From IMG/VR virus record IMGVR_UViG_3300025000_000056: DNA of 64,000 nt; one strand, given 5' to 3'. The translations under genes were made by a program, and so were the position numbers. Within the stretch, counting starts at the first letter, position 1; each line of letters starts with the position of its first letter. Source of the DNA: a virus (lineage: Duplodnaviria > Heunggongvirae > Uroviricota > Caudoviricetes). A model generated the notes under the pieces. The model saw only the letters and a program-made list of their open reading frames with translations. It did no database searches and was not told the DNA's origin. Below, one piece after another: positions 5,291 through 23,127 of the stretch.

Positions 5291-5302
5291 GTCATTTCAT
5301 AA

Positions 5303-5357: not shown

Positions 5358-5618
5358 ATGGAACGCGATCGTAATACCGATCAAGACGGTGATAAAGAAC
5401 CACAACCGATACCACAGACGATCACAATGACCCAGGAACAACTTCAAGCCATAATCACATCCGCAGTACAAACGGCATTAGCCACGGCCAATTTGACACA
5501 TACTGATCCTAACAATATTGTGAATCAAGTTGTTAACGTCCCTGTTCAATTACTCAGTTCTGCTGTAAACTTTGTTGGCGATGTTTTAAGCATTCTCACC
5601 CTTAATAAGAAAGCTTAA
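5358..5618 (+). CDS. hypothetical protein
   Basis: ORF track; AAGGAGG RBS. Confidence 0.5.
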   Translation: MERDRNTDQDGDKEPQPIPQTITMTQEQLQAIITSAVQTALATANLTHTDPNNIVNQVVNVPVQLLSSAVNFVGDVLSILTLNKKA

Positions 5619-6699: not shown

Positions 6700-6790
6700 G
6701 TAAACCATTACAATTTGTAATACTAATTGACATAAAGTGCCTCTAATGGTATAATCAAATTAATATTTGTACTGAATTAGGAGGCTTAAA
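6700..6790 (+). promoter_or_regulatory. two tandem promoter-like elements (attacaatttgtaatact ; aatggtataat)
   Basis: Matches the recurring TTGTTACAA...TGnTATAAT motif family. Confidence 0.4.
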
Positions 6791-7126: not shown

Positions 7127-7526
7127 AGAAGATTATTTACCCGCTGACCATATTGAAAGTCGTGATGTAGTACTAGACACCGTTATGAAAGCAATTTATG
7201 ATCTAGTTACTACTTCGCCTAAGAAATTTGATATCTCAGCCATTATTGCTGGAATGTCCGGTGCTATCTCTCAGAGTATGTATGATATTATGAGAGATGA
7301 ACACGGAGCAGAAGAAGCCACTAAGATCATTGAAAGTTTTAGTGATGCTGGTTTTGATATGCTACTTGCCATTAAAGAGATAGCTAAGAAGAATCAGTTT
7401 CCAGGCGAAGTCATTGTACTTAGTATCGCTACATCGCTTGAAAGTCTTATCAGCGCATCGATCGTAGAATCAATTTCTAACCAAAATAAAGAGGAGAGTG
7501 CTACTAATGCAACAATTACCGAGTGA
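7119..7526 (+). CDS. hypothetical protein
   Basis: ORF track; overlaps the upstream stop. Confidence 0.45.
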   Translation: MSREDYLPADHIESRDVVLDTVMKAIYDLVTTSPKKFDISAIIAGMSGAISQSMYDIMRDEHGAEEATKIIESFSDAGFDMLLAIKEIAKKNQFPGEVIVLSIATSLESLISASIVESISNQNKEESATNATITE

Positions 7527-8172
7527 TTTAAGTGAAAAACTACGCGAGATTATTTCAGGAATCATGAATCAAGCAAAACCGGAATTAACGCCTCACCAGG
7601 CTAATCTTGTAGCAACCGTAAACGGCTTAACAGAATTTACTAATAAGTTCCACGAAGCCAATCCTAATATTGAGGGTTATGAAGTCCTCGAATCACTTCA
7701 GGTTTTCTCCTTACATCAGATAATGGCTTCTTATCCTAATGAAGGAGCATACAATGAAGCTGAAAAAGCAGCAAACGAAATGCGAAATAAGATCCATGCC
7801 TTTATTAAGGAGCTTATGAATGCCGATCTAGCATCGGGTCAGAGTGATCCGCGGATCATGGTTATGGCGATTCTTCAATTGGCTGGTTCTGCTATGCATA
7901 GCTTTGAAGTCGTCAAGAGTGTAGATAATTCTATCAAGGACTTTCTATCGAAACTAACAATGCCCAAGGCAGCGACTGATCCTACTCCGAGTAGCTCATC
8001 GCCCGCTTCGGAAGCGCCACCATGTAGTTGTGGTCATTGTCAATCAAGTCAAACTCCAGCTCAACCTAGTAATCTGCCTCCGAACCTTGCAGAGATGCTT
8101 AAGAATTGCGTTGTCGTTGATATTTCCGAGCTCATGAATGAGAATCGTAAAAATCCATTTAAACTGCATTAA
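7507..8172 (+). CDS. hypothetical protein (CSCGHC motif, Ser/Pro-rich C-terminal region)
   Basis: ATG 10 nt after GAGGAG. Confidence 0.45.
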   Translation: MQQLPSDLSEKLREIISGIMNQAKPELTPHQANLVATVNGLTEFTNKFHEANPNIEGYEVLESLQVFSLHQIMASYPNEGAYNEAEKAANEMRNKIHAFIKELMNADLASGQSDPRIMVMAILQLAGSAMHSFEVVKSVDNSIKDFLSKLTMPKAATDPTPSSSSPASEAPPCSCGHCQSSQTPAQPSNLPPNLAEMLKNCVVVDISELMNENRKNPFKLH

Positions 8173-8395
8173 ATACGAAAGCATGCTTAAGTAACTTAGG
8201 GAAATGCTCATTATAAGTAACCTAGTAGTCGAAACAATTGAAGACTCCCAAGTAAGTCGAATCTGCACGAGCAACGCGGAGGGGATGACATGCGAAGACG
8301 CGAACGGATTATATATAAAAACACCGACGATGAATCGGCTAGACGAGTACCTAGTTATTTTAAGTCTTTGTATTGCAAGTACTATTTAATAATAT

Positions 8396-8464
8396 TAGCC
8401 ATTAGCTCAGTGAATAGAGTCCCGTTAATAACGGTGATGCGTGAGTTTGATCCTCACATGGCTA
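8396..8464 (+). ncRNA. 69-nt tRNA-like element: perfect 7-bp acceptor, D-arm and T-arm, but anticodon arm replaced by a 5-bp stem with 3-nt loop (TLE family)
   Basis: Acceptor tagccat/atggcta; D-arm gctc-agtgaata-gagt; anticodon arm ccgtt-aat-aacgg; T-arm gtgag-tttgatc-ctcac. Lies in the ORF-poor stretch 8173-8567, inside two weak tracked ORFs. Confidence 0.5.
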
Positions 8465-8474
8465 TAATTTACAA

Positions 8475-8503
8475 TGTCCCCTCCCTCCTTTTGGGAGGGG
8501 ACA
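8475..8503 (+). terminator. hairpin ATGTCCCCTCCCTCC-TTTTG-GGAGGGGACAT, family member
   Basis: Inverted repeat read from sequence. Confidence 0.5.
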
Positions 8504-8567
8504 TTAGTATATTTTAATCACAATTGGTAACACTAAATGTAATACGATAGAGGAGTGTGTAATTAAC

Positions 8568-17952: not shown

Positions 17953-17977
17953 CTTAAATAACTTAGGAGGTGGATTT

Positions 17978-18379
17978 GTGTTAATCGAACGTATTGTTGA
18001 TAACAAACGTTTCAAAGTTGAAATTGACTTTAAAGAAATTAAGAGTCATATTGCTGAGGCTGCTGAAGAGTACAGCGATCATCCTGGAGGTGATATAGAA
18101 TTACCATTAGCTAATTATCACCCTCAGTGTGCAGAAGCTCTAGCTATTATCAACGCTATCGAAGAGAATAATGATTTAGCCATCGAGCTGATTATAAACA
18201 CTGCCAAGAAAAAGAACGGCTGGTTCCGTAAGGGCGCTGTCTATTATCATCGAACATATGGTGATTTATCGTATGAATCACAGGATGAATACGGTTCTCG
18301 TACGTATGCCTTTCGTTGTAAGGCTCATGATGATGATCTCATAGAACTTACATTCGAGACTTATGTTGAAAAATGGTAA
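17978..18379 (+). CDS. hypothetical protein (133 aa)
   Basis: GTG start 7 nt after AGGAGG. The tracked ORF from 17909 only translates the preceding hairpin. Confidence 0.5.
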   Translation: MLIERIVDNKRFKVEIDFKEIKSHIAEAAEEYSDHPGGDIELPLANYHPQCAEALAIINAIEENNDLAIELIINTAKKKNGWFRKGAVYYHRTYGDLSYESQDEYGSRTYAFRCKAHDDDLIELTFETYVEKW

Positions 18380-18591
18380 ATGAGAAATGTCCAAATGAAT
18401 GCTCTTCTTTTACCCAAGCGACACTAAATAACATCACGATCCTTATCGATAGTAAAGTATTTCATCCAACGGGATGGAGTTGCTTACGATGTGGTCATTT
18501 TATAGCAACTTCTCCTAGAGAGGTCTATCCAGTGCCAATTATTAAACCTAAGAGGTTATCATGGTTTGCTAGATTGTTTAGACGATCTTAG
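18373..18591 (+). CDS. hypothetical small protein (CPNEC..CLRCGH)
   Basis: ORF track; weak RBS. Confidence 0.3.
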   Translation: MVNEKCPNECSSFTQATLNNITILIDSKVFHPTGWSCLRCGHFIATSPREVYPVPIIKPKRLSWFARLFRRS

Positions 18592-18704
18592 TGATGATAT
18601 CCTCACTAAATAGAATATCAGAGCCATTACCCTTTATGGTTTAAGGAGTCATTACCCCACTCCTTATCTGGTATTCTCCTTAGTGAGGAAACTCACTGAA
18701 TTAT

Positions 18705-19161
18705 GGGCCCGAGTTAGTTTCGACAGGGTGAATAGAGTATGTCCTCTGAGATGACAGTCGGAAAGACGACATTAAAGCAAATGCTACACCTATGAAAAAC
18801 GCTGCCTAATTTTAATTAATTAGGAACTACAGCCCTAAAACGGAGAGTACCCAACGACTCCTGAAGGTCGAAGACTGGGTAGTTAATAGTGGCGAAGTTG
18901 GCATACGCACGCTTGAAATAAAGCGAGGTCAAAGAATTAACTATGGCTGCATGCAAATGTGGAAGACGAAAGTCCCGTGCGGGTTCGAGTCCCGTCTATT
19001 AACGCATGTTTCCTGCATCGTATAATGCAGGTGGTGGAGGCGAGGGTTTAATAAGCGCTGGTTGCAATTCCAGTAGGTTAGACACTCAGATTTCTCAGTA
19101 GTAACAGGGACAAAGGGTAGACATTCTGGACACGGGGGGCGGCTCCCCGTCGGGTCCGCCA
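18705..19161 (+). ncRNA. ssrA: tmRNA-like gene (ssrA-like)
   Basis: 5' end gggcccgagttagtTTCGACAGGG matches the tmRNA tRNA-like domain consensus. Internal tag frame gca aat gct aca cct atg aaa aac GCT GCC TAA (ANATPMKNAA-stop) matches the Bacillus-type GCTGCCTAA tag end. 3' end cgggtcc-g-CCA is complementary to 5' gggcccg over 7 bp. Confidence 0.55.
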
Positions 19162-19170
19162 GCTAATTTT

Positions 19171-19363
19171 GCGGATATAGCTCAATGGTAGAGCGGCTAT
19201 CGAGAGATAGCGGTTAATTACGGAGTTATATAAACCATGTTGATCACATGAATAAAGTAATTCTTTGGAGATTAACTGTATAAGTGAGGAGTATGTGATT
19301 AGTCCGGACGAAAGCATATAAGTAGCTTATATACGGTTGGGGGTTCGAGCCCTTCTATCCGCT
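19171..19363 (+). ncRNA. tRNA-like element (TLE family, GAGA tetraloop arm) interrupted by a 123-nt insertion flanked by a 5-bp direct repeat CGGTT
   Basis: 5' part gcggata-ta-gctc-aatggta-gagc-g-gctatc-gaga-gatagc-ggtt (19171-19215). 3' part ggggg-ttcgagc-ccttc-tatccgc (19339-19362), with a perfect 7-bp acceptor. Joined pieces give 69 nt. CGGTT occurs at 19211-15 and 19334-38. Confidence 0.5.
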
Positions 19364-19379
19364 ACAATATTATTCTCAT

Positions 19380-19460
19380 GCGGGGTATAGTTTAGTGGTT
19401 TAAAACGAGCGAAGGAAGTTTATGATCGCTATCAGGGGTTCGAATCCCTTTGCCCTGCCC
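19380..19460 (+). tRNA. tRNA-like gene with encoded CCA and an expanded 13-nt anticodon loop AGGAAGTTTATGA
   Basis: Acceptor gcggggt/gccctgc (with G-U pairs); D-arm gttt-agtggttt-aaac; stem agcga/tcgct closed by a 13-nt loop; T-arm agggg-ttcgaat-ccctt; CCA at 19458-60. Confidence 0.45.
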
Positions 19461-19667
19461 AATCATCTGGAAGGTCTTGGTGACAGAGAAATATGTTAGA
19501 TGCGTCAGACATCAGTATTAAACTCTTGCAGTTCAATTCTGCACTTCCGCGATCATTTGTTAGTTTTGATTATATAGGTACTCTGTAGCCTGTAGTAATT
19601 GCAGGACAATGAGCTAAGTTGAGCTTAAATAACTCAAGCCTATATGATCTTAATTTGCTTACATAGC

Positions 19668-19695
19668 GTCTCTTCGAGGCGTTTTGTATATAGCC
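19668..19695 (+). terminator. imperfect hairpin GCGTCTC-TTCG-AGGCG followed by TTTTG
   Basis: Shares the TTACATAGCGTCTCT sequence with the hairpin at 20782. Confidence 0.4.
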
Positions 19696-19747
19696 TGATG
19701 GCTTATTAAATATTATCTAGTTGTAAAGAATATGAGGAGGAAAAGAA

Positions 19748-20767
19748 ATGAAAATCGTAACCGAAAACAACACGAAGAAGGAAATCTTATCTGCTTATTC
19801 CGAGGCCTTGGAATTGTTAAAAGCTAGTGAAGGTATCATAGTTGATCCAGCCAAAGAAATGTCCATGAAAAAAGCCGGAGAGACTTTGACTAAAGCCACT
19901 GAAACTGTTGGTCTTAATGTTGAAGACCAAATTGCAAAATTGCAGAAGAGTGTCGCCAGCATACTTGGTAATTTAGCGAATAGTTTTACGGAAGAAATTA
20001 AAACATTCAATGATTTACAAGAAGCAATCGCCCTCAAAGAATCCGAACTGAAAGAGCTGTTTGACATTGAAAAAGAAGCGTTCGCCTTAACTGCGTTGGT
20101 CAATGCAAATAGGGAAACCAAAGATAAGTTTAAGGCTGCTTTCGATGAAGACAAAGCAAGAATGCAGGCTGAACTTGATCAATTAAAAGCTGATTTGAAG
20201 GCTGAAAAAGCTGCTCATTTGAATGAAACCTATCTGCAAGACGAAGAAGTTAAACGGAAACGTGCCAGGGATCAAGAAGAATACACGTACGACTTCGCAA
20301 GGAAGAAGCAACTTGACGATAACGATTGGGAAGATGAGAAAAAGGTACGTGAAAAACAGTTATCGGAACTTGAAAGTGAAGTCAAAACAAGACTTGAACT
20401 GGTAACAACAAGGGAAGAAACGATTGACGACCTTAAGGCTAAAGTGGAAGAAATTCCGCAATTAGTTGACGCTGCCAGAAAAGCTGGAGAAGCTGAAGGC
20501 GAAAAGAAAGCTGGAACAAGTTTCGGATTTGAAAAGAGAGCAATCGAATCCAAGACAACTTCTGAAAAGACGATACTTGAAAATAAGGTTGCCATGCTAG
20601 AGGCTCAGCTCAATAAAGCGAATGACGAATTAACGAGACTAAATGAAGATTTGAAAACTGCATATAGCAAAATTCAGGAAACCGCTACGGCAGCTATCGA
20701 ATCTCAAGCCAATTCGCGAATGGTTAATAGTCTTGAGGCCTTAGTGAAAGATAAAACTCAGAAGTAA
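19748..20767 (+). CDS. coiled-coil protein (339 aa), embedded in the RNA-gene cluster
   Basis: GAGGAGG RBS; Lys/Glu-rich heptad-like composition throughout. Confidence 0.55.
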   Translation: MKIVTENNTKKEILSAYSEALELLKASEGIIVDPAKEMSMKKAGETLTKATETVGLNVEDQIAKLQKSVASILGNLANSFTEEIKTFNDLQEAIALKESELKELFDIEKEAFALTALVNANRETKDKFKAAFDEDKARMQAELDQLKADLKAEKAAHLNETYLQDEEVKRKRARDQEEYTYDFARKKQLDDNDWEDEKKVREKQLSELESEVKTRLELVTTREETIDDLKAKVEEIPQLVDAARKAGEAEGEKKAGTSFGFEKRAIESKTTSEKTILENKVAMLEAQLNKANDELTRLNEDLKTAYSKIQETATAAIESQANSRMVNSLEALVKDKTQK

Positions 20768-20781
20768 AGATTTAATCGTTA

Positions 20782-20815
20782 CATAGCGTCTCTCAAGAGA
20801 GACGCTATGTAAATT
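20782..20815 (+). terminator. perfect hairpin ACATAGCGTCTCT-CAAGA-GAGACGCTATGT
   Basis: 13-bp inverted repeat immediately after the stop codon. Confidence 0.5.
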
Positions 20816-20833
20816 ATTTCAACGTATTACATG

Positions 20834-20907
20834 ATTCTATTGGTGTACGGACGCACGCCCTGCTACCAGGCAGTGAAGGGCGAGTTCGATTCTCGCAACA
20901 GAATCCA
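20834..20907 (+). tRNA. tRNA-like gene with encoded CCA; anticodon arm not canonical by eye
   Basis: Acceptor ttctatt/aacagaa (6 of 7 bp); D-stem gtgt/gcac; T-arm gcgag-ttcgatt-ctcgc; CCA at 20905-07. Confidence 0.4.
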
Positions 20908-20911
20908 TCAT

Positions 20912-20985
20912 GGCCGGATAGTGTAAGGAAGCACGCGCTACTCTTCATAGCGAAGGGAGAGTTCAATTCTCTCAGACGGCTGCCA
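20912..20985 (+). tRNA. tRNA-Lys(CUU)-like with encoded CCA
   Basis: D-arm gtgt-aaggaa-gcac; anticodon arm cgcta-CTCTTCA-tagcg; T-arm gagag-ttcaatt-ctctc; acceptor only partly paired (ggccgga / agacggc). Confidence 0.5.
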
Positions 20986-21113
20986 TTGTTATCTTTAGTT
21001 AAGATTTATCTTAACTATTAATTTTAGATGGAAAGCCCCTAAAATAGACGTAGAGATAAGTGGCGAAGGGGACGGGAGCGATATGATATGGTGAGTCGTT
21101 CCAAGCAATTATC

Positions 21114-21233
21114 ACCGAGGTACCCAAGTGGTTAGGGAGCGTATCCGGCGCGCCTCTCCGCTGTAAAGAGATGTAATCTTCTATGGGGAGCGGTAAACGT
21201 AATAGGCGGGTTCAAATCCCGTCCTCGGTGCCA
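21114..21233 (+). tRNA. 120-nt tRNA-like gene (type-II-like 3-bp D-stem) with about 40-50 extra nucleotides; encoded CCA
   Basis: Acceptor accgagg/cctcggt (perfect 7 bp); D-arm ccc-aagtggtta-ggg; T-arm gcggg-ttcaaat-cccgt; CCA at 21231-33; internal palindrome GGCGCGCC. Confidence 0.45.
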
Positions 21234-21258
21234 TATTAATTAAGAGGAGGAAGGATTT

Positions 21259-21501
21259 ATGAGAAACACGTCGGGTGCTAATTGTATTGAAGAAGCAGAG
21301 GTTCAGTTTGTCGAAGTCAATGTTCCAGTTCTTGCTCAGGTGATCTACTCTGGTAATAGAACCGTCGTCATTTTGCCAGACGGCTCTAAGGGGATTGCCA
21401 AATGTTGTTTTGAAGATGTCTTCAATAAAAAGATAGGTCACGAGTTAGCTCTTGGAAGAGCTATTGCAACTAGGGACGGCAAAAGGTATCATAAAGCTTA
21501 A
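21259..21501 (+). CDS. hypothetical protein (80 aa) between tRNA-like genes
   Basis: ORF track; GAGGAGG RBS. Confidence 0.45.
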   Translation: MRNTSGANCIEEAEVQFVEVNVPVLAQVIYSGNRTVVILPDGSKGIAKCCFEDVFNKKIGHELALGRAIATRDGKRYHKA

Positions 21502-21516
21502 ACTTATTATTCTCAT

Positions 21517-21677
21517 GGCGAGGTGGCCGAGCGGTTGAAGGCGCTAGTCAAGGGATACGATAGTTAAAGGTCTAGACGGAGGAAGTTTATGATCGTCAAA
21601 ACTATTTCCCAGCAACCGGTACTGAGCTCTAAACTATCTACGAGTGATGTTCGAAAGTTCGAATCTTTCCCTTGCCG
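21517..21677 (+). tRNA. 161-nt tRNA-like gene: Ser/Leu/Tyr-type 5' half and canonical T-arm/acceptor separated by about 75 extra nucleotides
   Basis: Acceptor ggcgagg/ccttgcc (7 bp with one G-U); D-arm gcc-gagcggttgaa-ggc; T-arm gaaag-ttcgaat-ctttc; internal hairpin gacgg-AGGAAGTTTATGA-tcgtc. Confidence 0.45.
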
Positions 21678-21701
21678 ACGTAATTAAAGGAGATGATTTT
21701 A

Positions 21702-21866
21702 TTGATCGTTAAATGCGATATCGTTAAGTGTGATTTTAATTACAGTGGCTTCTGTCGTGCTAACGTTCTTGAAATTGTACCTAATCATATACTTATGCCT
21801 GGTGACCCAGGTTATTTTGAGTACATTACGTGTTCAACGTATGTAAAGTTGGAACATCATGATTAA
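21702..21866 (+). CDS. small Cys-containing protein (54 aa)
   Basis: TTG start 10 nt after AAGGAG; below the ORF-track size cutoff. Confidence 0.35.
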   Translation: MIVKCDIVKCDFNYSGFCRANVLEIVPNHILMPGDPGYFEYITCSTYVKLEHHD

Positions 21867-22008
21867 AGACGAGCAAGCTGAAGCCGAAATATTTCCTGAA
21901 TTTGTGAGAGAACTCATAGGCGATTATCCTAGTGTCTATGATATGAAGAAGGGTCGCTTTCTTAGTAAAGAGGAAGTAATCCGAAAAATGAATAGAGAGG
22001 AGGAATAA
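21859..22008 (+). CDS. small hypothetical protein (49 aa)
   Basis: ATG overlaps the upstream stop; below the ORF-track size cutoff. Confidence 0.3.
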   Translation: MIKDEQAEAEIFPEFVRELIGDYPSVYDMKKGRFLSKEEVIRKMNREEE

Positions 22009-22010
22009 AC

Positions 22011-22265
22011 ATGGATCGTAATCTAATGGCTGAACTTGATGATATTATCAATAAGGGAGTAGCAATTGCCGAAGTAAACCGGCAAACTATGAGTACTATT
22101 AAAGAGTTTCAAAATGCGCTCATGGAATTCTCTAAGGAAAACGACATTCCTAAATTAGTTGCTGAAATTATGGAAAAACATCCAGAAAAACGCCCGGAAC
22201 TACAAAAGATTGTTCTGGCGTTTCATTGCGAAGGAAAACGCGTTGAAGATTCACTAATTCGTTAA
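22011..22265 (+). CDS. hypothetical protein
   Basis: ORF track; GAGGAGG RBS. Confidence 0.5.
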   Translation: MDRNLMAELDDIINKGVAIAEVNRQTMSTIKEFQNALMEFSKENDIPKLVAEIMEKHPEKRPELQKIVLAFHCEGKRVEDSLIR

Positions 22266-22273
22266 TTAACATG

Positions 22274-22440
22274 GTGATCGTATTTCAATCGGTAGAAGCT
22301 GTCTTGCAGAAAGCTGATAGTCAGGAGGAACGTGATAGGATCGCTACCTAACATGGCTTGACATGACGGTTGTGAAAGCAATACGTACTTTAAGAAGACC
22401 TGTGGCAGAGTTGCGAGTTCAATTCTCGTCGATCACCCCA
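22274..22440 (+). tRNA. 167-nt tRNA-like gene with encoded CCA and about 90 extra internal nucleotides
   Basis: Acceptor gtgatcg/cgatcac (perfect 7 bp); D-arm tttc-aatcggta-gaag; T-arm gcgag-ttcaatt-ctcgt; CCA at 22438-40; insert contains aggaggaacgtgataggatcgcta, related to the 13-nt loop motif. Confidence 0.45.
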
Positions 22441-22462
22441 ATTAAATCCAAGGAGGTTATCA

Positions 22463-22762
22463 ATGATTACAGCCGGTATAATTATTAACATCATACTACT
22501 GATCATAACTATTGTTGCAGGCATTTGGATGATGGTGGAAGATGCTTTAAATCCTGATAACATTCTTGATTTATTCAAGAATGTTATTAAGGTCAAGCAT
22601 CTTCTATTCTTATTAGTTCCAGGTGTCTTAATCGGTATTTTCTTACTCAAAGCTGGTATTACATTCGTCTTAAGCTTTGAACAAGATGACGATGATGATG
22701 AGCCAGATTCAGTTTGGAATAAACCTATATCACTTCGTAAGAGATACGTAGACGAGGAGTGA
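22463..22762 (+). CDS. membrane protein with acidic tail
   Basis: ORF track; AAGGAGG RBS; hydrophobic N-terminal two-thirds. Confidence 0.5.
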   Translation: MITAGIIINIILLIITIVAGIWMMVEDALNPDNILDLFKNVIKVKHLLFLLVPGVLIGIFLLKAGITFVLSFEQDDDDDEPDSVWNKPISLRKRYVDEE

Positions 22763-22986
22763 TTTGTATGATGCGAAATCTACTTAAGATCTTTGCTAAA
22801 AATACACTTAAGGCAACGATACTTTATTGTCCTTTTTGTGCGAGTCCTAAAACAAAATATCACGGACTAGTACAAAAAGACGGTAAGAATAGTAAAACTG
22901 ATAATTATTCAATTACTTGTCTTGCCTGTGGAGCCTCTGGTAATGTTCAAGAAGTTTGGCTTAAAGCGCCAGAAAAAGCTCTATAA
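22759..22986 (+). CDS. zinc-ribbon protein (CPFC...CLAC)
   Basis: ORF track. Confidence 0.45.
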   Translation: MICMMRNLLKIFAKNTLKATILYCPFCASPKTKYHGLVQKDGKNSKTDNYSITCLACGASGNVQEVWLKAPEKAL

Positions 22987-23127
22987 TAACTACATGAGGG
23001 TTGGCAGGTGCCAGGATACGTTAGGTCTACGCAGTTCAAGTCTGCCGAGAGCGGGGAAGTTTATGCCGTTTGGTTAACCTTGATGGTTCGATACCATCAA
23101 ACCCTCACTATATTCAAGGAGGCTGTT

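What the first reader, a model, noticed from the sequence alone, without database searches (positions are those of the whole stretch)
8396..8464. Isolated tRNA-like element in an intergenic region far from the RNA cluster, consistent with tRNA-type punctuation of an mRNA
The 69-nt element has a perfect acceptor tagccat/atggcta, D-arm, T-arm, and a 5-bp anticodon stem with only a 3-nt loop. It lies in the ORF-poor 8173-8567 interval, immediately before the GC-rich hairpin 8475-8503 and the RBS of gene 8568. The two tracked ORFs covering it (8204-8389, 8290-8517) have no RBS and look spurious. Its position suggests an RNase P/Z processing signal separating two transcription units.
Basis: partly seen in the sequence, partly recalled or inferred. 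Interest (0 to 1): 0.6.

Follow-up and report, generated by a model that had tools for sequence, protein, structure and literature searches.

The report
Phage tRNA look-alike lacking a proper anticodon arm
A large uncultivated phage carries, between two groups of genes, a 70-base RNA gene that folds like a tRNA but has a shortened anticodon arm. It very probably cannot read codons, and similar shortened tRNA look-alikes occur in many other phage genomes, with no known function.

Summary
Window 8396-8465 (+) is a tRNA-shaped element scoring 36.6 bits on Rfam tRNA (threshold 29; whole-window E = 4.9e-4). It has a perfect 7-bp acceptor stem, D and T arms and the usual tertiary-contact bases. Its anticodon arm is only 13 nt instead of 17, read either as 5 bp plus a 3-nt loop or as 3 bp plus a 7-nt loop UUAAUAA.

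The two ORFs over it have non-coding codon usage. The hairpin after it (8473-8505) belongs to a family of 10 hairpins that normally sit 5-11 nt after stop codons. Here it sits 7 nt after the element, so the element is positioned like a gene.

No orthologue was found. A pattern scan found at least 120 viral contigs with tRNA-shaped genes of 61-69 nt and similarly shortened anticodon arms. Some lie in tRNA arrays and many are isolated. In one family, variation is confined to loops.

Best reading: an expressed, non-decoding tRNA-like RNA, cut out by RNase P and RNase Z. Excision would also sever the surrounding transcript. The "punctuation" idea is only partly supported, because it may be a consequence rather than the purpose. 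A decaying tRNA gene is not excluded. Interest is moderate.

The parts
8396..8465 (+). tRNA-like element including the discriminator U8465. Acceptor stem 8396-8402 with 8458-8464; U8/A9 at 8403-8404.
   Evidence: Rfam RF00005 at 36.6 bits, model positions 1-71. Cloverleaf is the minimum-energy fold. Relaxed ARAGORN calls tRNA-Ile(aat).
8405..8420 (+). D arm: GCUC / AGUGAAUA / GAGU. It has G18 but A19 in place of G19.
   Evidence: Sequence. The same D loop together with the same T loop occurs in a canonical phage tRNA-Arg(ACG) with an encoded CCA end, at L008:10165-10237.
8422..8434 (+). Shortened anticodon arm CCGUU-AAU-AACGG, 13 nt instead of 17. The alternative reading is CCG-UUAAUAA-CGG.
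   Evidence: Pair probabilities are 0.67-0.998. The three conformers lie within 2.1 kcal/mol of each other.
8435..8440 (+). Variable region UGAUGC (6 nt). C8440 can form the 15-48 pair with G8410.
   Evidence: Sequence, interpreted with standard tRNA numbering.
8441..8457 (+). T arm GUGAG-UUUGAUC-CUCAC. U56 can pair with A19, a compensated version of the usual G19-C56 pair.
   Evidence: T-arm scan. The same loop pair occurs in L008 tRNA-Arg.
8473..8505 (+). Gene-end hairpin with a pyrimidine-rich 5' arm (13 bp, 7-nt loop). It is one of a family of 10 in the window.
   Evidence: The other members lie 5-11 nt after stop codons; this one lies 7 nt after the element's last base.
8173..8395 (+). 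Non-coding spacer of 223 nt between the stop codon of gene 7498-8172 and the element. No convincing promoter.
   Evidence: Codon scores of ORFs 8204-8386 and 8290-8514 are non-coding. Only a 9/12 promoter match at 8285-8312, which is not above chance.
6727..6755 (+). Perfect sigma-70 consensus promoter TTGACA-17-TATAAT. It is the nearest strong promoter upstream and the likely source of the transcript that carries the element.
   Evidence: The link to the element is an inference.
8516..8529 (+). Imperfect copy of a palindromic motif (TTACAA-N-TTGTAA) that lies next to promoters elsewhere in the window. Here it lies between the hairpin and the ribosome-binding site of gene 8568.
8550..9311 (+). 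Ribosome-binding site GAGGAG (8550-8555) and the downstream gene 8568-9311 (247 aa, no known domain).

Best explanation
The element is a gene for a small, non-decoding tRNA-like RNA.

Proposed mechanism:
- It is transcribed on the + strand, most likely as the tail of the three-gene unit driven by the consensus promoter at 6727-6755, with read-through into gene 8568 possible.
- It folds into a normal L-shaped tRNA body. Host RNase P releases it by cutting between U8395 and U8396. RNase Z cuts after U8465, because no CCA is encoded, and CCA can then be added.
- Its anticodon arm is 4 nt (2 bp) too short, so it should not be able to span the distance from the decoding site to the peptidyl-transferase centre. 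It therefore acts through its acceptor/T-arm/elbow surface, not through an anticodon.
- Excision unavoidably cuts the surrounding transcript. The upstream mRNA is detached from the gene-end hairpin, and the downstream RNA is left starting 7 nt before that hairpin.

Shown here: the fold, the short arm, the non-coding context, the gene-like placement before a gene-end hairpin, and the existence of many analogous short-armed tRNA-like genes in other phages.

Inferred: transcription, processing, stability, and any cellular role. Possible roles include a mimic or sponge for a tRNA-binding enzyme or defence factor, or a processing module.
For: - tRNA model score above the Rfam threshold and a cloverleaf minimum-energy fold.
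- All tertiary-contact positions are present: U8-A14, G15-C48, G18-U55, U54-A58 and A21. A19-U56 replaces G19-C56, and the same D-loop/T-loop pair occurs in a canonical phage tRNA-Arg with a CCA end.
- The anticodon arm is 13 nt in every conformer.
- The overlapping ORFs are non-coding.
- A hairpin from the 10-member gene-end family lies 7 nt after the element, as it does after stop codons.
- Identical sequence was recovered on 18-23 independently assembled contigs, so this is not an assembly error.
- Two further short tRNA-likes with 3-4-nt loops in the anticodon position lie in the same genome, at 16830-16896 and 16905-16973. A relative has one with a 7-bp stem and a 3-nt loop, at L002:5328-5401.
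- A viral-contig scan for D arm and T arm spaced 3-12 nt too closely returned at least 120 contigs. Of 119 elements with both acceptor strands inside the fetched DNA, 97 have intact acceptor and T stems (66 unique sequences, 61-69 nt). Seventy percent have a hairpin of at least 4 bp in the shortened region, against 39 +/- 5% in shuffles.
- Rfam scores seven such elements (one from each of seven loci) at 43-58 bits.
- 39 of 120 lie within 1 kb of canonical tRNAs; the others are isolated and intergenic.
- In one 16-haplotype family all 6 variable columns fall in loops and none in the 40 stem positions.
- In another family the acceptor and T stems differ by compensatory changes while the short arm stays identical (sequences).
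Against: - There is no orthologue of this particular element in viral, metagenome or genome collections, so selection on it cannot be measured.
- There are no expression data.
- No convincing promoter of its own.
- A single 4-nt deletion in the loop of a once-normal tRNA would give the same sequence.
- The analogous elements in other phages are analogues by architecture only. They are not homologues and are heterogeneous.
- My hairpin statistics for alignment A3 are circular, because those sequences were chosen for having a hairpin. One search is the unbiased figure.
- The L009 family's element is no better conserved than its downstream flank.
Confidence: 0.45

Rival explanations
1. mRNA punctuation. 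The element exists mainly as a cis-acting RNase P/RNase Z cleavage signal that splits a polycistronic transcript between gene 7498-8172 and gene 8568. The released tRNA-like piece is a by-product. This is how plant mitochondrial t-elements and the MALAT1/mascRNA 3'-end signal work.
For: - The fold has all RNase P/Z determinants.
- It lies in an intergenic region of a one-strand gene array.
- Gene-end hairpins are followed by the next gene within 24-40 nt with no promoter, so read-through is likely.
- After RNase Z cleavage the downstream RNA would begin 7 nt before a strong hairpin, which is a classic 5' stabiliser arrangement (inference).
- In the L009 phage family a short-armed tRNA-like sits 6-10 nt after the stop codon of the putative major tail gene and before the tail chaperone and tape-measure genes. 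Differential mRNA stability would make sense there.
- t-elements are documented processing signals (PMC1920247).
Against: - Only one junction in 64 kb uses it, while 10 junctions use the hairpin family alone.
- RNase P cleavage would strip the upstream mRNA of its 3' hairpin.
- The element keeps a full D arm and tertiary pairs, which processing does not require.
- A third of the analogous elements in other phages sit inside tRNA arrays.
- A palindromic promoter-associated motif between the hairpin and gene 8568 hints that the downstream gene has its own control.
Confidence: 0.2
2. Decaying tRNA gene. A former phage tRNA lost 4 nt of its anticodon loop or arm in one deletion and is now a functionless relic that has not yet eroded.
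For: - One deletion explains the whole anomaly, since everything else is canonical.
- No orthologue and no population variation are available to show constraint.
- The genome's other tRNA-like genes are also irregular.
- tRNA-like remnants are common in prokaryotic genomes (PMC9897764).
Against: - All stems are perfect and the elbow pair is compensated.
- The element sits in gene-like register before a gene-end hairpin.
- Three elements in this genome and many in unrelated phages show the same kind of shortening. At least two families have loop-only variation or compensatory stem changes, which argues that this architecture can be maintained by selection.
Confidence: 0.25
3. Working decoder. 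The element is a real tRNA-Ile(AAU) with a canonical 7-nt loop UUAAUAA (U33, A37) on an unusually short 3-bp anticodon stem. Alternatively it has a 5-'bp' stem including U-G and C-U pairs at the expense of a 3-bp D stem.
For: - Relaxed ARAGORN calls Ile(aat).
- Rfam aligns a 7-nt loop.
- The 7-nt-loop conformer is only about 2 kcal/mol above the minimum-energy fold.
- The loop has the Y32-U33...R37 pattern.
- L113 in IMG/VR shows the same duality, with CUG-CUUGCAG-CAG.
Against: - The arm is 4 nt short in the natural register, and positions 26/27 are missing in the Rfam alignment.
- From general knowledge, A34 in bacterial systems is essentially confined to tRNA-Arg(ACG).
- There is no CCA and no recognisable identity set.
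- Default ARAGORN rejects it.
Confidence: 0.06
4. Integration-site remnant. The element is a piece of tRNA gene carried as a phage attachment site or left by a mobile element.
For: - tRNA genes are common integration targets (PMC9897764).
- One analogous element (L121) lies about 750 nt from an integrase gene.
Against: - The element holds both halves of the cloverleaf with a perfect acceptor stem, not a 3' or 5' fragment.
- No integrase was found among the neighbouring genes that were scanned.
- In L121 the actual boundary tRNA is a different, full-length one at the contig end.
Confidence: 0.03

Closest known systems
Canonical bacterial or phage elongator tRNA (Rfam RF00005)
   Same: 7-bp acceptor stem, 4-bp D stem with an 8-nt loop, 5-bp T stem with a 7-nt T loop, and the tertiary-contact bases. 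It scores above the family threshold.
   Different: The anticodon arm is 13 nt rather than 17, the variable region is 6 nt, there is no encoded CCA, and A19-U56 replaces G19-C56. Default ARAGORN rejects it.
Plant mitochondrial t-elements (tRNA-like processing signals; Forner et al. 2007, PMC1920247)
   Same: A non-canonical cloverleaf with a conserved T arm, located between protein genes. It is expected to be cut by RNase P and RNase Z and so to create mRNA ends.
   Different: t-elements are defined by mapped transcript ends, and none are available here. They are usually far more degenerate in the D and anticodon regions. This element is in a phage, and only one junction in the window uses it.
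mascRNA at the 3' end of MALAT1, and the tRNA-like units of murine gammaherpesvirus 68
   Same: tRNA-shaped, non-aminoacylated RNAs with abnormal anticodon regions that RNase P/Z excise from a longer transcript. In the herpesvirus the tRNA-like unit is followed by hairpins.
   Different: These are eukaryotic or viral RNA polymerase II/III systems with no sequence relationship. Here the following hairpin is a generic gene-end element of the phage.
Phage tRNAs with altered anticodon loops proposed to escape host anticodon nucleases (van den Berg et al. 2023, PMC10264068)
   Same: Phage-encoded, with a normal tRNA body and a change concentrated in the anticodon loop.
   Different: Those tRNAs keep a 7-nt loop and still decode. 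This one has lost arm length and almost certainly cannot.
tRNA gene fragments and pseudogenes in prokaryotic genomes (PMC9897764)
   Same: Low-scoring, non-canonical tRNA-like sequence that annotation tools treat inconsistently.
   Different: Those are mostly half-genes left by integration events. This element is a complete cloverleaf with an internal shortening.
Short-anticodon-arm tRNA-like genes in IMG/VR contigs and in (pro)phage-bearing bacterial genomes (found here)
   Same: 61-69 nt, intact acceptor, D and T arms. The region between the D stem and T stem holds N26, a 12-13-nt mini hairpin and a variable loop. Many are isolated in intergenic regions.
   Different: The relationship is architectural only. 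There is no sequence homology to the window element, whose D and T loops differ from the search pattern. The set is heterogeneous and its function is unknown.

Membership tests
tRNA (Rfam RF00005) | Covariance-model score at or above the curated gathering score (29 bits) | tested here: met
   36.6 bits over model positions 1-71.
tRNA (Rfam RF00005) | Cloverleaf with a 7-bp acceptor stem, D arm, T arm and the conserved tertiary-contact nucleotides | tested here: met
   U8, A14, G15/C48, G18/U55, U54/A58 and A21 are present. A19/U56 is a compensated pair that also occurs in a canonical tRNA-Arg.
tRNA (functional decoder) | Anticodon arm of a 5-bp stem plus a 7-nt loop (17 nt) | tested here: not met
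   The arm is 13 nt in all conformers. Default ARAGORN makes no call.
tRNA (functional decoder) | Aminoacylation and codon reading | not testable with these tools
   This needs biochemistry. No recognisable identity set: U1-A72, G3-C70, U73.
t-element / tRNA-like mRNA processing signal | tRNA-like fold with a T arm that RNase P/Z can recognise | tested here: met
t-element / tRNA-like mRNA processing signal | Ends of the element coincide with mapped mRNA 5' or 3' ends | not testable with these tools
   No transcript data exist for this uncultivated phage.
t-element / tRNA-like mRNA processing signal | Co-transcription with the flanking protein genes | tested here: inconclusive
   There is no strong promoter in 8173-8395, and hairpins of this family are followed closely by promoter-less genes. 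However, a promoter-associated palindrome lies before gene 8568.
Short-anticodon-arm tRNA-like genes of phages (class delimited here) | Complete acceptor, D and T arms with the D-stem-to-T-stem region at least 3 nt shorter than canonical and holding a mini hairpin | tested here: met
   Positions 26-48 span 20 nt against the canonical 23, with a 13-nt hairpin. The class is described.
Short-anticodon-arm tRNA-like genes of phages (class delimited here) | Sequence homology to a member family | tested here: not met
   No orthologue was found. The resemblance of the mini hairpin to L121 is not recurrent. Model R1 does not separate short-armed elements from canonical tRNAs.
tRNA gene fragment at a phage attachment site | Only one half of a tRNA, next to an integrase and matching a host tRNA | tested here: not met
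   The cloverleaf is complete, and no integrase was found among the neighbours that were scanned.
Ribozyme-assisted tRNA processing (HDV-like theta ribozymes next to phage tRNAs, PMC10879173) | HDV-like ribozyme fold flanking the tRNA | tested here: not met
   No ribozyme family matched at E <= 10 in 8150-8600.

The most novel reading that the evidence does not exclude
The element is one member of a widespread and, as far as my literature searches show, undescribed class of phage-encoded tRNA mimics without a usable anticodon. These would be 61-70-nt RNAs that keep the acceptor/T-arm/elbow surface but replace the anticodon arm with a 12-13-nt mini hairpin, and that selection maintains. They would have a dedicated role. 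One possibility is occupying or titrating a tRNA-recognising host factor, such as a defence nuclease, a tRNA-modifying toxin, the CCA-adding enzyme or an elongation factor. Another is serving as portable RNase P/Z processing modules.
Probability: 0.3. Interest if true: 0.75.

Novelty: new variant of a known kind. Interest (0 to 1): 0.45.

Why it matters
Why phages carry tRNA genes is still debated, with codon supply and escape from tRNA-cleaving defences as the main proposals. A tRNA-shaped RNA that cannot decode fits neither idea directly.

If such RNAs are functional, they point to a use of the tRNA shape in phage infection that does not depend on an anticodon: mimicry, decoy or transcript processing. 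They would also give a defined, easily synthesised substrate to test.

In practice, annotation pipelines treat these elements inconsistently. Rfam calls them tRNA, ARAGORN mostly does not, and gene callers place ORFs over them. Phage tRNA counts and small-ORF sets are therefore contaminated.

If the element is only a decaying tRNA gene, the finding is ordinary.

Tried and rejected
- **Orthologue search through the downstream protein.** Only three distant homologues exist (34-39% identity). Two of their loci have no tRNA-like upstream. L002 has only a T arm with the same stem (GTGAG/CTCAC) at the end of an ~830-nt GC-rich non-coding stretch, with no cloverleaf. Homology is undecidable.
- **Protein-based locus scans.** Scans of viral and metagenome contigs found nothing.
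- **DNA-pattern scans for the element's D and T loops.** The only hit was an unrelated canonical tRNA-Arg.
- **Population variation.** The ORF-derived protein cluster has a single member, so there is no microdiversity to analyse.
- **BLAST against phage records.** No related tRNA was found, and no related phage genome.
- **Own promoter.** Matches are at chance level, and there is no copy of the phage's TGTTACA..TGNTATAAT-type promoters in the spacer.
- **The hairpin as an intrinsic terminator.** The tool flags it, but the count equals the shuffle expectation, and family members lack U tails. I treat it as a gene-end or stability hairpin.
- **A shared CGTTAAT(N)AACG mini hairpin with L121.** A dedicated scan found no recurrent tRNA-like family, so the resemblance is probably chance.
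- **Covariance model of short-armed elements (R1).** It scores canonical tRNAs as well or better, so it is useless as a class test.
- **L009-family conservation against its flanks.** An ungapped comparison was misleading. After alignment the element is no more conserved than the downstream DNA. Only the loop-versus-stem distribution of changes is informative.
- **Ribozyme or other Rfam family in 8150-8600.** None.
- **Literature.** Seven full-text searches found no description of phage tRNA-likes with shortened anticodon arms.

Full report
**Where the window comes from**

The protein of gene 8568-9311 is found with identical sequence on 18-23 contigs of about 220-230 kb. The one shown comes from a groundwater metagenome (ENA ERZ909597 / SRR1658469, PRJNA268031).

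Almost all genes lie on the + strand. They include ThyX, RecJ, an ATP-dependent DNA ligase, an SNF2 helicase, a MoxR/VWA pair, UDG, a Pol III alpha-type polymerase, RecA and a Bro-N/antirepressor protein. No phage record is close at the DNA level. The only protein-level phage matches are weak ones, to Bacillus phage G. The window is therefore part of an uncultivated jumbo phage.

**The observation**

Positions 8396-8465 read: UAGCCAU UA GCUC AGUGAAUA GAGU C CCGUU AAU AACGG UGAUGC GUGAG UUUGAUC CUCAC AUGGCUA U.

- The Rfam tRNA model aligns end to end at 36.6 bits (threshold 29). E = 3.4e-6 locally and 4.9e-4 for the whole window. It is the second-best tRNA hit in 64 kb.
- Rfam's fast filters miss it in the default run.
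- Default ARAGORN does not call it. Relaxed ARAGORN calls tRNA-Ile(aat).
- The cloverleaf is the minimum-energy fold, both alone (-19.6 kcal/mol, z = -2.1) and within the full intergenic interval.

Reading the sequence against standard tRNA numbering, U8, A14, G15/C48, G18/U55, U54/A58 and A21 are all present. G19-C56 is replaced by A19-U56. A pattern scan for this D-loop/T-loop pair found it in a canonical tRNA-Arg(ACG) with an encoded CCA end on an unrelated viral contig (L008). That elbow variant is therefore compatible with a normal tRNA.

The single anomaly is the anticodon arm, which is 13 nt instead of 17. The three readings lie within 2.1 kcal/mol of each other:

| Reading | Energy (kcal/mol) |
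|---|---|
| 5 bp + AAU loop | -20.2 |
| 4 bp + 5-nt loop | -19.7 |
| 3 bp + UUAAUAA loop | -18.1 |

A strict T-arm motif occurs 14 times on the + strand and never on the - strand, against 0.67 expected. Thirteen copies lie between 16.7 and 23.1 kb. The copy at 8441 is the only outlier, so "isolated" is correct.

**The surroundings**

The two ORFs over the element have codon-usage scores of -0.03 (8290-8514) and 0.09 (8204-8386). Real 75-codon windows of this genome average 0.49 (sd 0.13, minimum 0.15). Both ORFs are therefore spurious. Neither ORF has any relative.

The hairpin at 8473-8505 is not specific to this locus. It belongs to a family of ten + strand hairpins at 5301, 5624, 5995, 8473, 11052, 14657, 17913, 28324, 37549 and 53871.

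- They share a pyrimidine-rich 5' arm (...CUCCUCCC), a short loop and a GGGAG... 3' arm, and their outer stems covary.
- Where a gene end is defined, they start 5-11 nt after the stop codon, except one that directly abuts it, and most lie 24-40 nt before the next start codon. They have no U tail.
- Here the hairpin starts 7 nt after the last base of the tRNA-like element and 300 nt after the nearest stop codon.

The element therefore occupies the position a gene normally occupies. Because promoter-less genes follow these hairpins so closely, the hairpins are unlikely to be efficient terminators. Read-through across the element is plausible, but this is an inference.

The 223-nt spacer upstream has no promoter better than chance. 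The nearest strong promoter is a perfect TTGACA-17-TATAAT at 6727-6755. Between the hairpin and the ribosome-binding site of gene 8568 lies an imperfect copy of a palindrome (TTACAA-N-TTGTAA) that accompanies promoters elsewhere in the window.

**Relatives**

The downstream protein has only three distant homologues.

- Two of their loci have nothing tRNA-like upstream.
- L002 has, just before the homologous gene, a T arm with the same stem (GTGAG/CTCAC). It closes an ~830-nt, 55% GC non-coding stretch, but there is no cloverleaf.
- Scans for orthologues of the element in viral, metagenome and genome collections found none.
- The population shows no variation.

Selection on this element therefore cannot be measured directly.

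**The same architecture elsewhere**

Within the genome, 16830-16896 (CCC-GUAA-GGG) and 16905-16973 (GACGU-UGAC-GCGUU) are also tRNA-like elements of 67-69 nt with 4-nt loops in the anticodon position. In addition, 19171-19363 has a 6-bp stem with a GAGA loop there. L002 has a tRNA-like element with a 7-bp stem and a 3-nt loop.

- Of 119 elements with both acceptor strands inside the fetched DNA, 97 have at least 6 of 7 acceptor pairs and at least 4 of 5 T-stem pairs. They make up 66 unique sequences of 61-69 nt.
- The commonest layout is N26, then a 4-bp stem with a 3-5-nt loop, then a 5-nt variable loop.
- A hairpin of at least 4 bp is present in 70% of them, against 39 +/- 5% after shuffling (maximum 54.5% in 300 shuffles).
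- Rfam scores seven such elements (one from each of seven loci) at 43-58 bits, against about 63-74 for most canonical tRNAs in the same loci. Default ARAGORN calls only 30 of 120.
- 39 of 120 lie within 1 kb of canonical tRNAs. The rest are isolated and intergenic, with median gaps of about 130 nt on each side.

Two families give evidence of constraint.

- One family has 16 haplotypes and lies right after the putative major tail gene of a siphovirus that also occurs in a Phocaeicola genome. All six of its variable columns fall in loops and none in the 40 stem positions. If changes fell at random, the chance of this is about 0.005 by my arithmetic. After proper alignment, however, the element is no more conserved than its downstream flank.
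- In another family (L026/L031/L093/L115), the acceptor and T stems differ by compensatory changes while the short arm is identical (sequences).

The same pattern also hit at least 120 bacterial genome contigs. Some carry the same phage families. Many from Bacteroidota have the D and T modules without acceptor pairing and are something else.

These elements are analogues of the window element by architecture, not homologues. A covariance model built from them does not separate short-armed elements from canonical tRNAs. A resemblance between the window's mini hairpin and that of L121 is not recurrent.

**Interpretation**

Most likely (0.45) the element is an expressed, non-decoding tRNA-like RNA. 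It has every determinant that RNase P needs, including U at -1. It has no encoded CCA, so RNase Z should cut after U8465. Its arm is too short for it to decode. If it lies on a read-through transcript, its excision necessarily cuts that transcript.

As the purpose of the element it is weakened on several counts:

- This is the only junction among roughly 80 in the window that uses a tRNA-like element.
- The phage has its own hairpin at junctions.
- Cleavage would strip the upstream mRNA of that hairpin.
- Analogous elements in other phages sit inside tRNA arrays.

A recently damaged tRNA gene (0.25) cannot be excluded, because one deletion would suffice and no comparative data exist for this locus. 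A working tRNA-Ile(AAU) on a 3-bp stem (0.06) and an attachment-site remnant (0.03) are unlikely.

**Comparison with known systems**

- It passes the sequence/structure test for the Rfam tRNA family but fails the defining anticodon-arm geometry of a decoder.
- It resembles plant mitochondrial t-elements (PMC1920247). From general knowledge it also resembles mascRNA and the gammaherpesvirus tRNA-like units, in being a tRNA-shaped, probably uncharged RNA excised from a longer transcript. The defining evidence for those systems, mapped RNA ends, is unavailable here.
- It differs from the phage tRNAs with mutated but full-length anticodon loops described in PMC10264068.
- It differs from the half-gene fragments described in PMC9897764.
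- Seven full-text searches found no description of phage tRNA-likes with shortened anticodon arms. That library is incomplete, so this is not proof of novelty.

**Verdict**

Its functional reading is plausible only as a side effect. I rate it a new variant of a known kind, with moderate interest (0.45). The interest would rise if the short-armed tRNA-likes prove to be a maintained, functional class.

Noticed in passing
window 15900-23110 (+): An RNA-rich region holds 13 T-arm motifs. Several units have perfect 7-bp acceptor stems but are 116-193 nt long: 18883-19003, 19171-19363, 21114-21233 (+GCCA), 21517-21680 and 22274-22440 (+CCCA). The last looks like tRNA-Cys(GCA) with a 93-nt insertion after position 37, which is too short for a group I intron. 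Only one unit (20912-20985, Lys CUU) is called as a normal tRNA by ARAGORN, and Rfam does not report it.
   Followed up: partly
window 16548-16572, 19408-19431, 21575-21599, 23049-23072 (+): Four hairpins share an identical 11-nt loop, GGAAGUUUAUG, flanked by different, mutually complementary stems (CACAAGA/UCUUGUG, AGCGA/UCGCU, GACG/CGUC, GCGG/CCGU). All four lie in the RNA cluster, and one replaces the anticodon loop of the 19381-19458 tRNA-like. The loop looks like a Shine-Dalgarno sequence plus AUG, or a protein-binding site.
   Followed up: partly
window 5301, 5624, 5995, 8473, 11052, 14657, 17913, 28324, 37549, 53871 (+): A family of ten gene-end hairpins has a pyrimidine-only 5' arm containing CCUCC (the anti-Shine-Dalgarno sequence) and a GGGAGG 3' arm. 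They lie 5-11 nt after stop codons, have no U tail, and the next gene starts 24-40 nt later. They are probably stability or processing elements rather than terminators.
   Followed up: partly
window 6710, 8516, 17062, 29218, 37679, 46734: A palindromic motif, TTACAA-N-TTGTAA, lies next to or inside promoter-like sequences (TGTTACAAAWTGTGATATAAT; a perfect TTGACA-17-TATAAT at 6727). It is a possible operator of a phage regulator.
   Followed up: no
window 8278-8285 and 8494-8501: The 8-mer GGAGGGGA occurs 190 nt upstream of the hairpin and again as its 3' arm. Both copies can pair with UCCCCUCC at 8477-8484. The upstream copy also serves as the apparent ribosome-binding site of the spurious ORF 8290. 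An alternative pairing that encloses the tRNA-like element is possible but untested.
   Followed up: no
window 18551-19096 and 18980-18994: There are weak tmRNA-like signals: Rfam permuted tmRNA at 21.8 bits (18667-18809), a tmRNA 3'-end fragment, and a relaxed ARAGORN call of a permuted tmRNA with tag ATPMKNAA*. L002 has a similar 3'-end fragment at 5376-5392.
   Followed up: no
L002 1260-2095 and 5320-5500: In the closest relative, an ~830-nt non-coding stretch of 55% GC ends in a T arm just before the homologue of gene 8568, and it has no Rfam match. Three T-arm modules lie in tandem about 48 nt apart (5376, 5427, 5474). One acceptor stem (5406-5498) encloses two T arms.
   Followed up: partly
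L138-L226 (GTDB genome contigs): Many Bacteroidota genomes (Chitinophagaceae, Flavobacterium, Spirosoma, Pedobacter) carry a unit with a tRNA D arm, then AACAGAC-type linker of 11-14 nt, then a tRNA T arm, without acceptor-stem pairing. This is an unidentified RNA built from tRNA modules and is distinct from the phage class.
   Followed up: no
L012 2647-2714 and the 16 related loci (L009 family): A 68-nt short-armed tRNA-like sits 6-10 nt after the stop codon of the putative major tail protein gene and before the tail chaperone and tape-measure genes of a gut siphovirus that also occurs in a Phocaeicola genome (L171). The C-terminal end of the upstream gene is hypervariable, while the element varies only in its loops.
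   Followed up: partly
window 8568-10243; L002, L003, L007: A two-gene cassette (about 240 aa plus about 300 aa, no known domains) is conserved in four distant phage lineages. In three of the four it lies among nucleotide- or RNA-metabolism genes (ThyX or ThyA/DHFR, RNase T, RNA ligase, RecJ). Its function is unknown.
   Followed up: no
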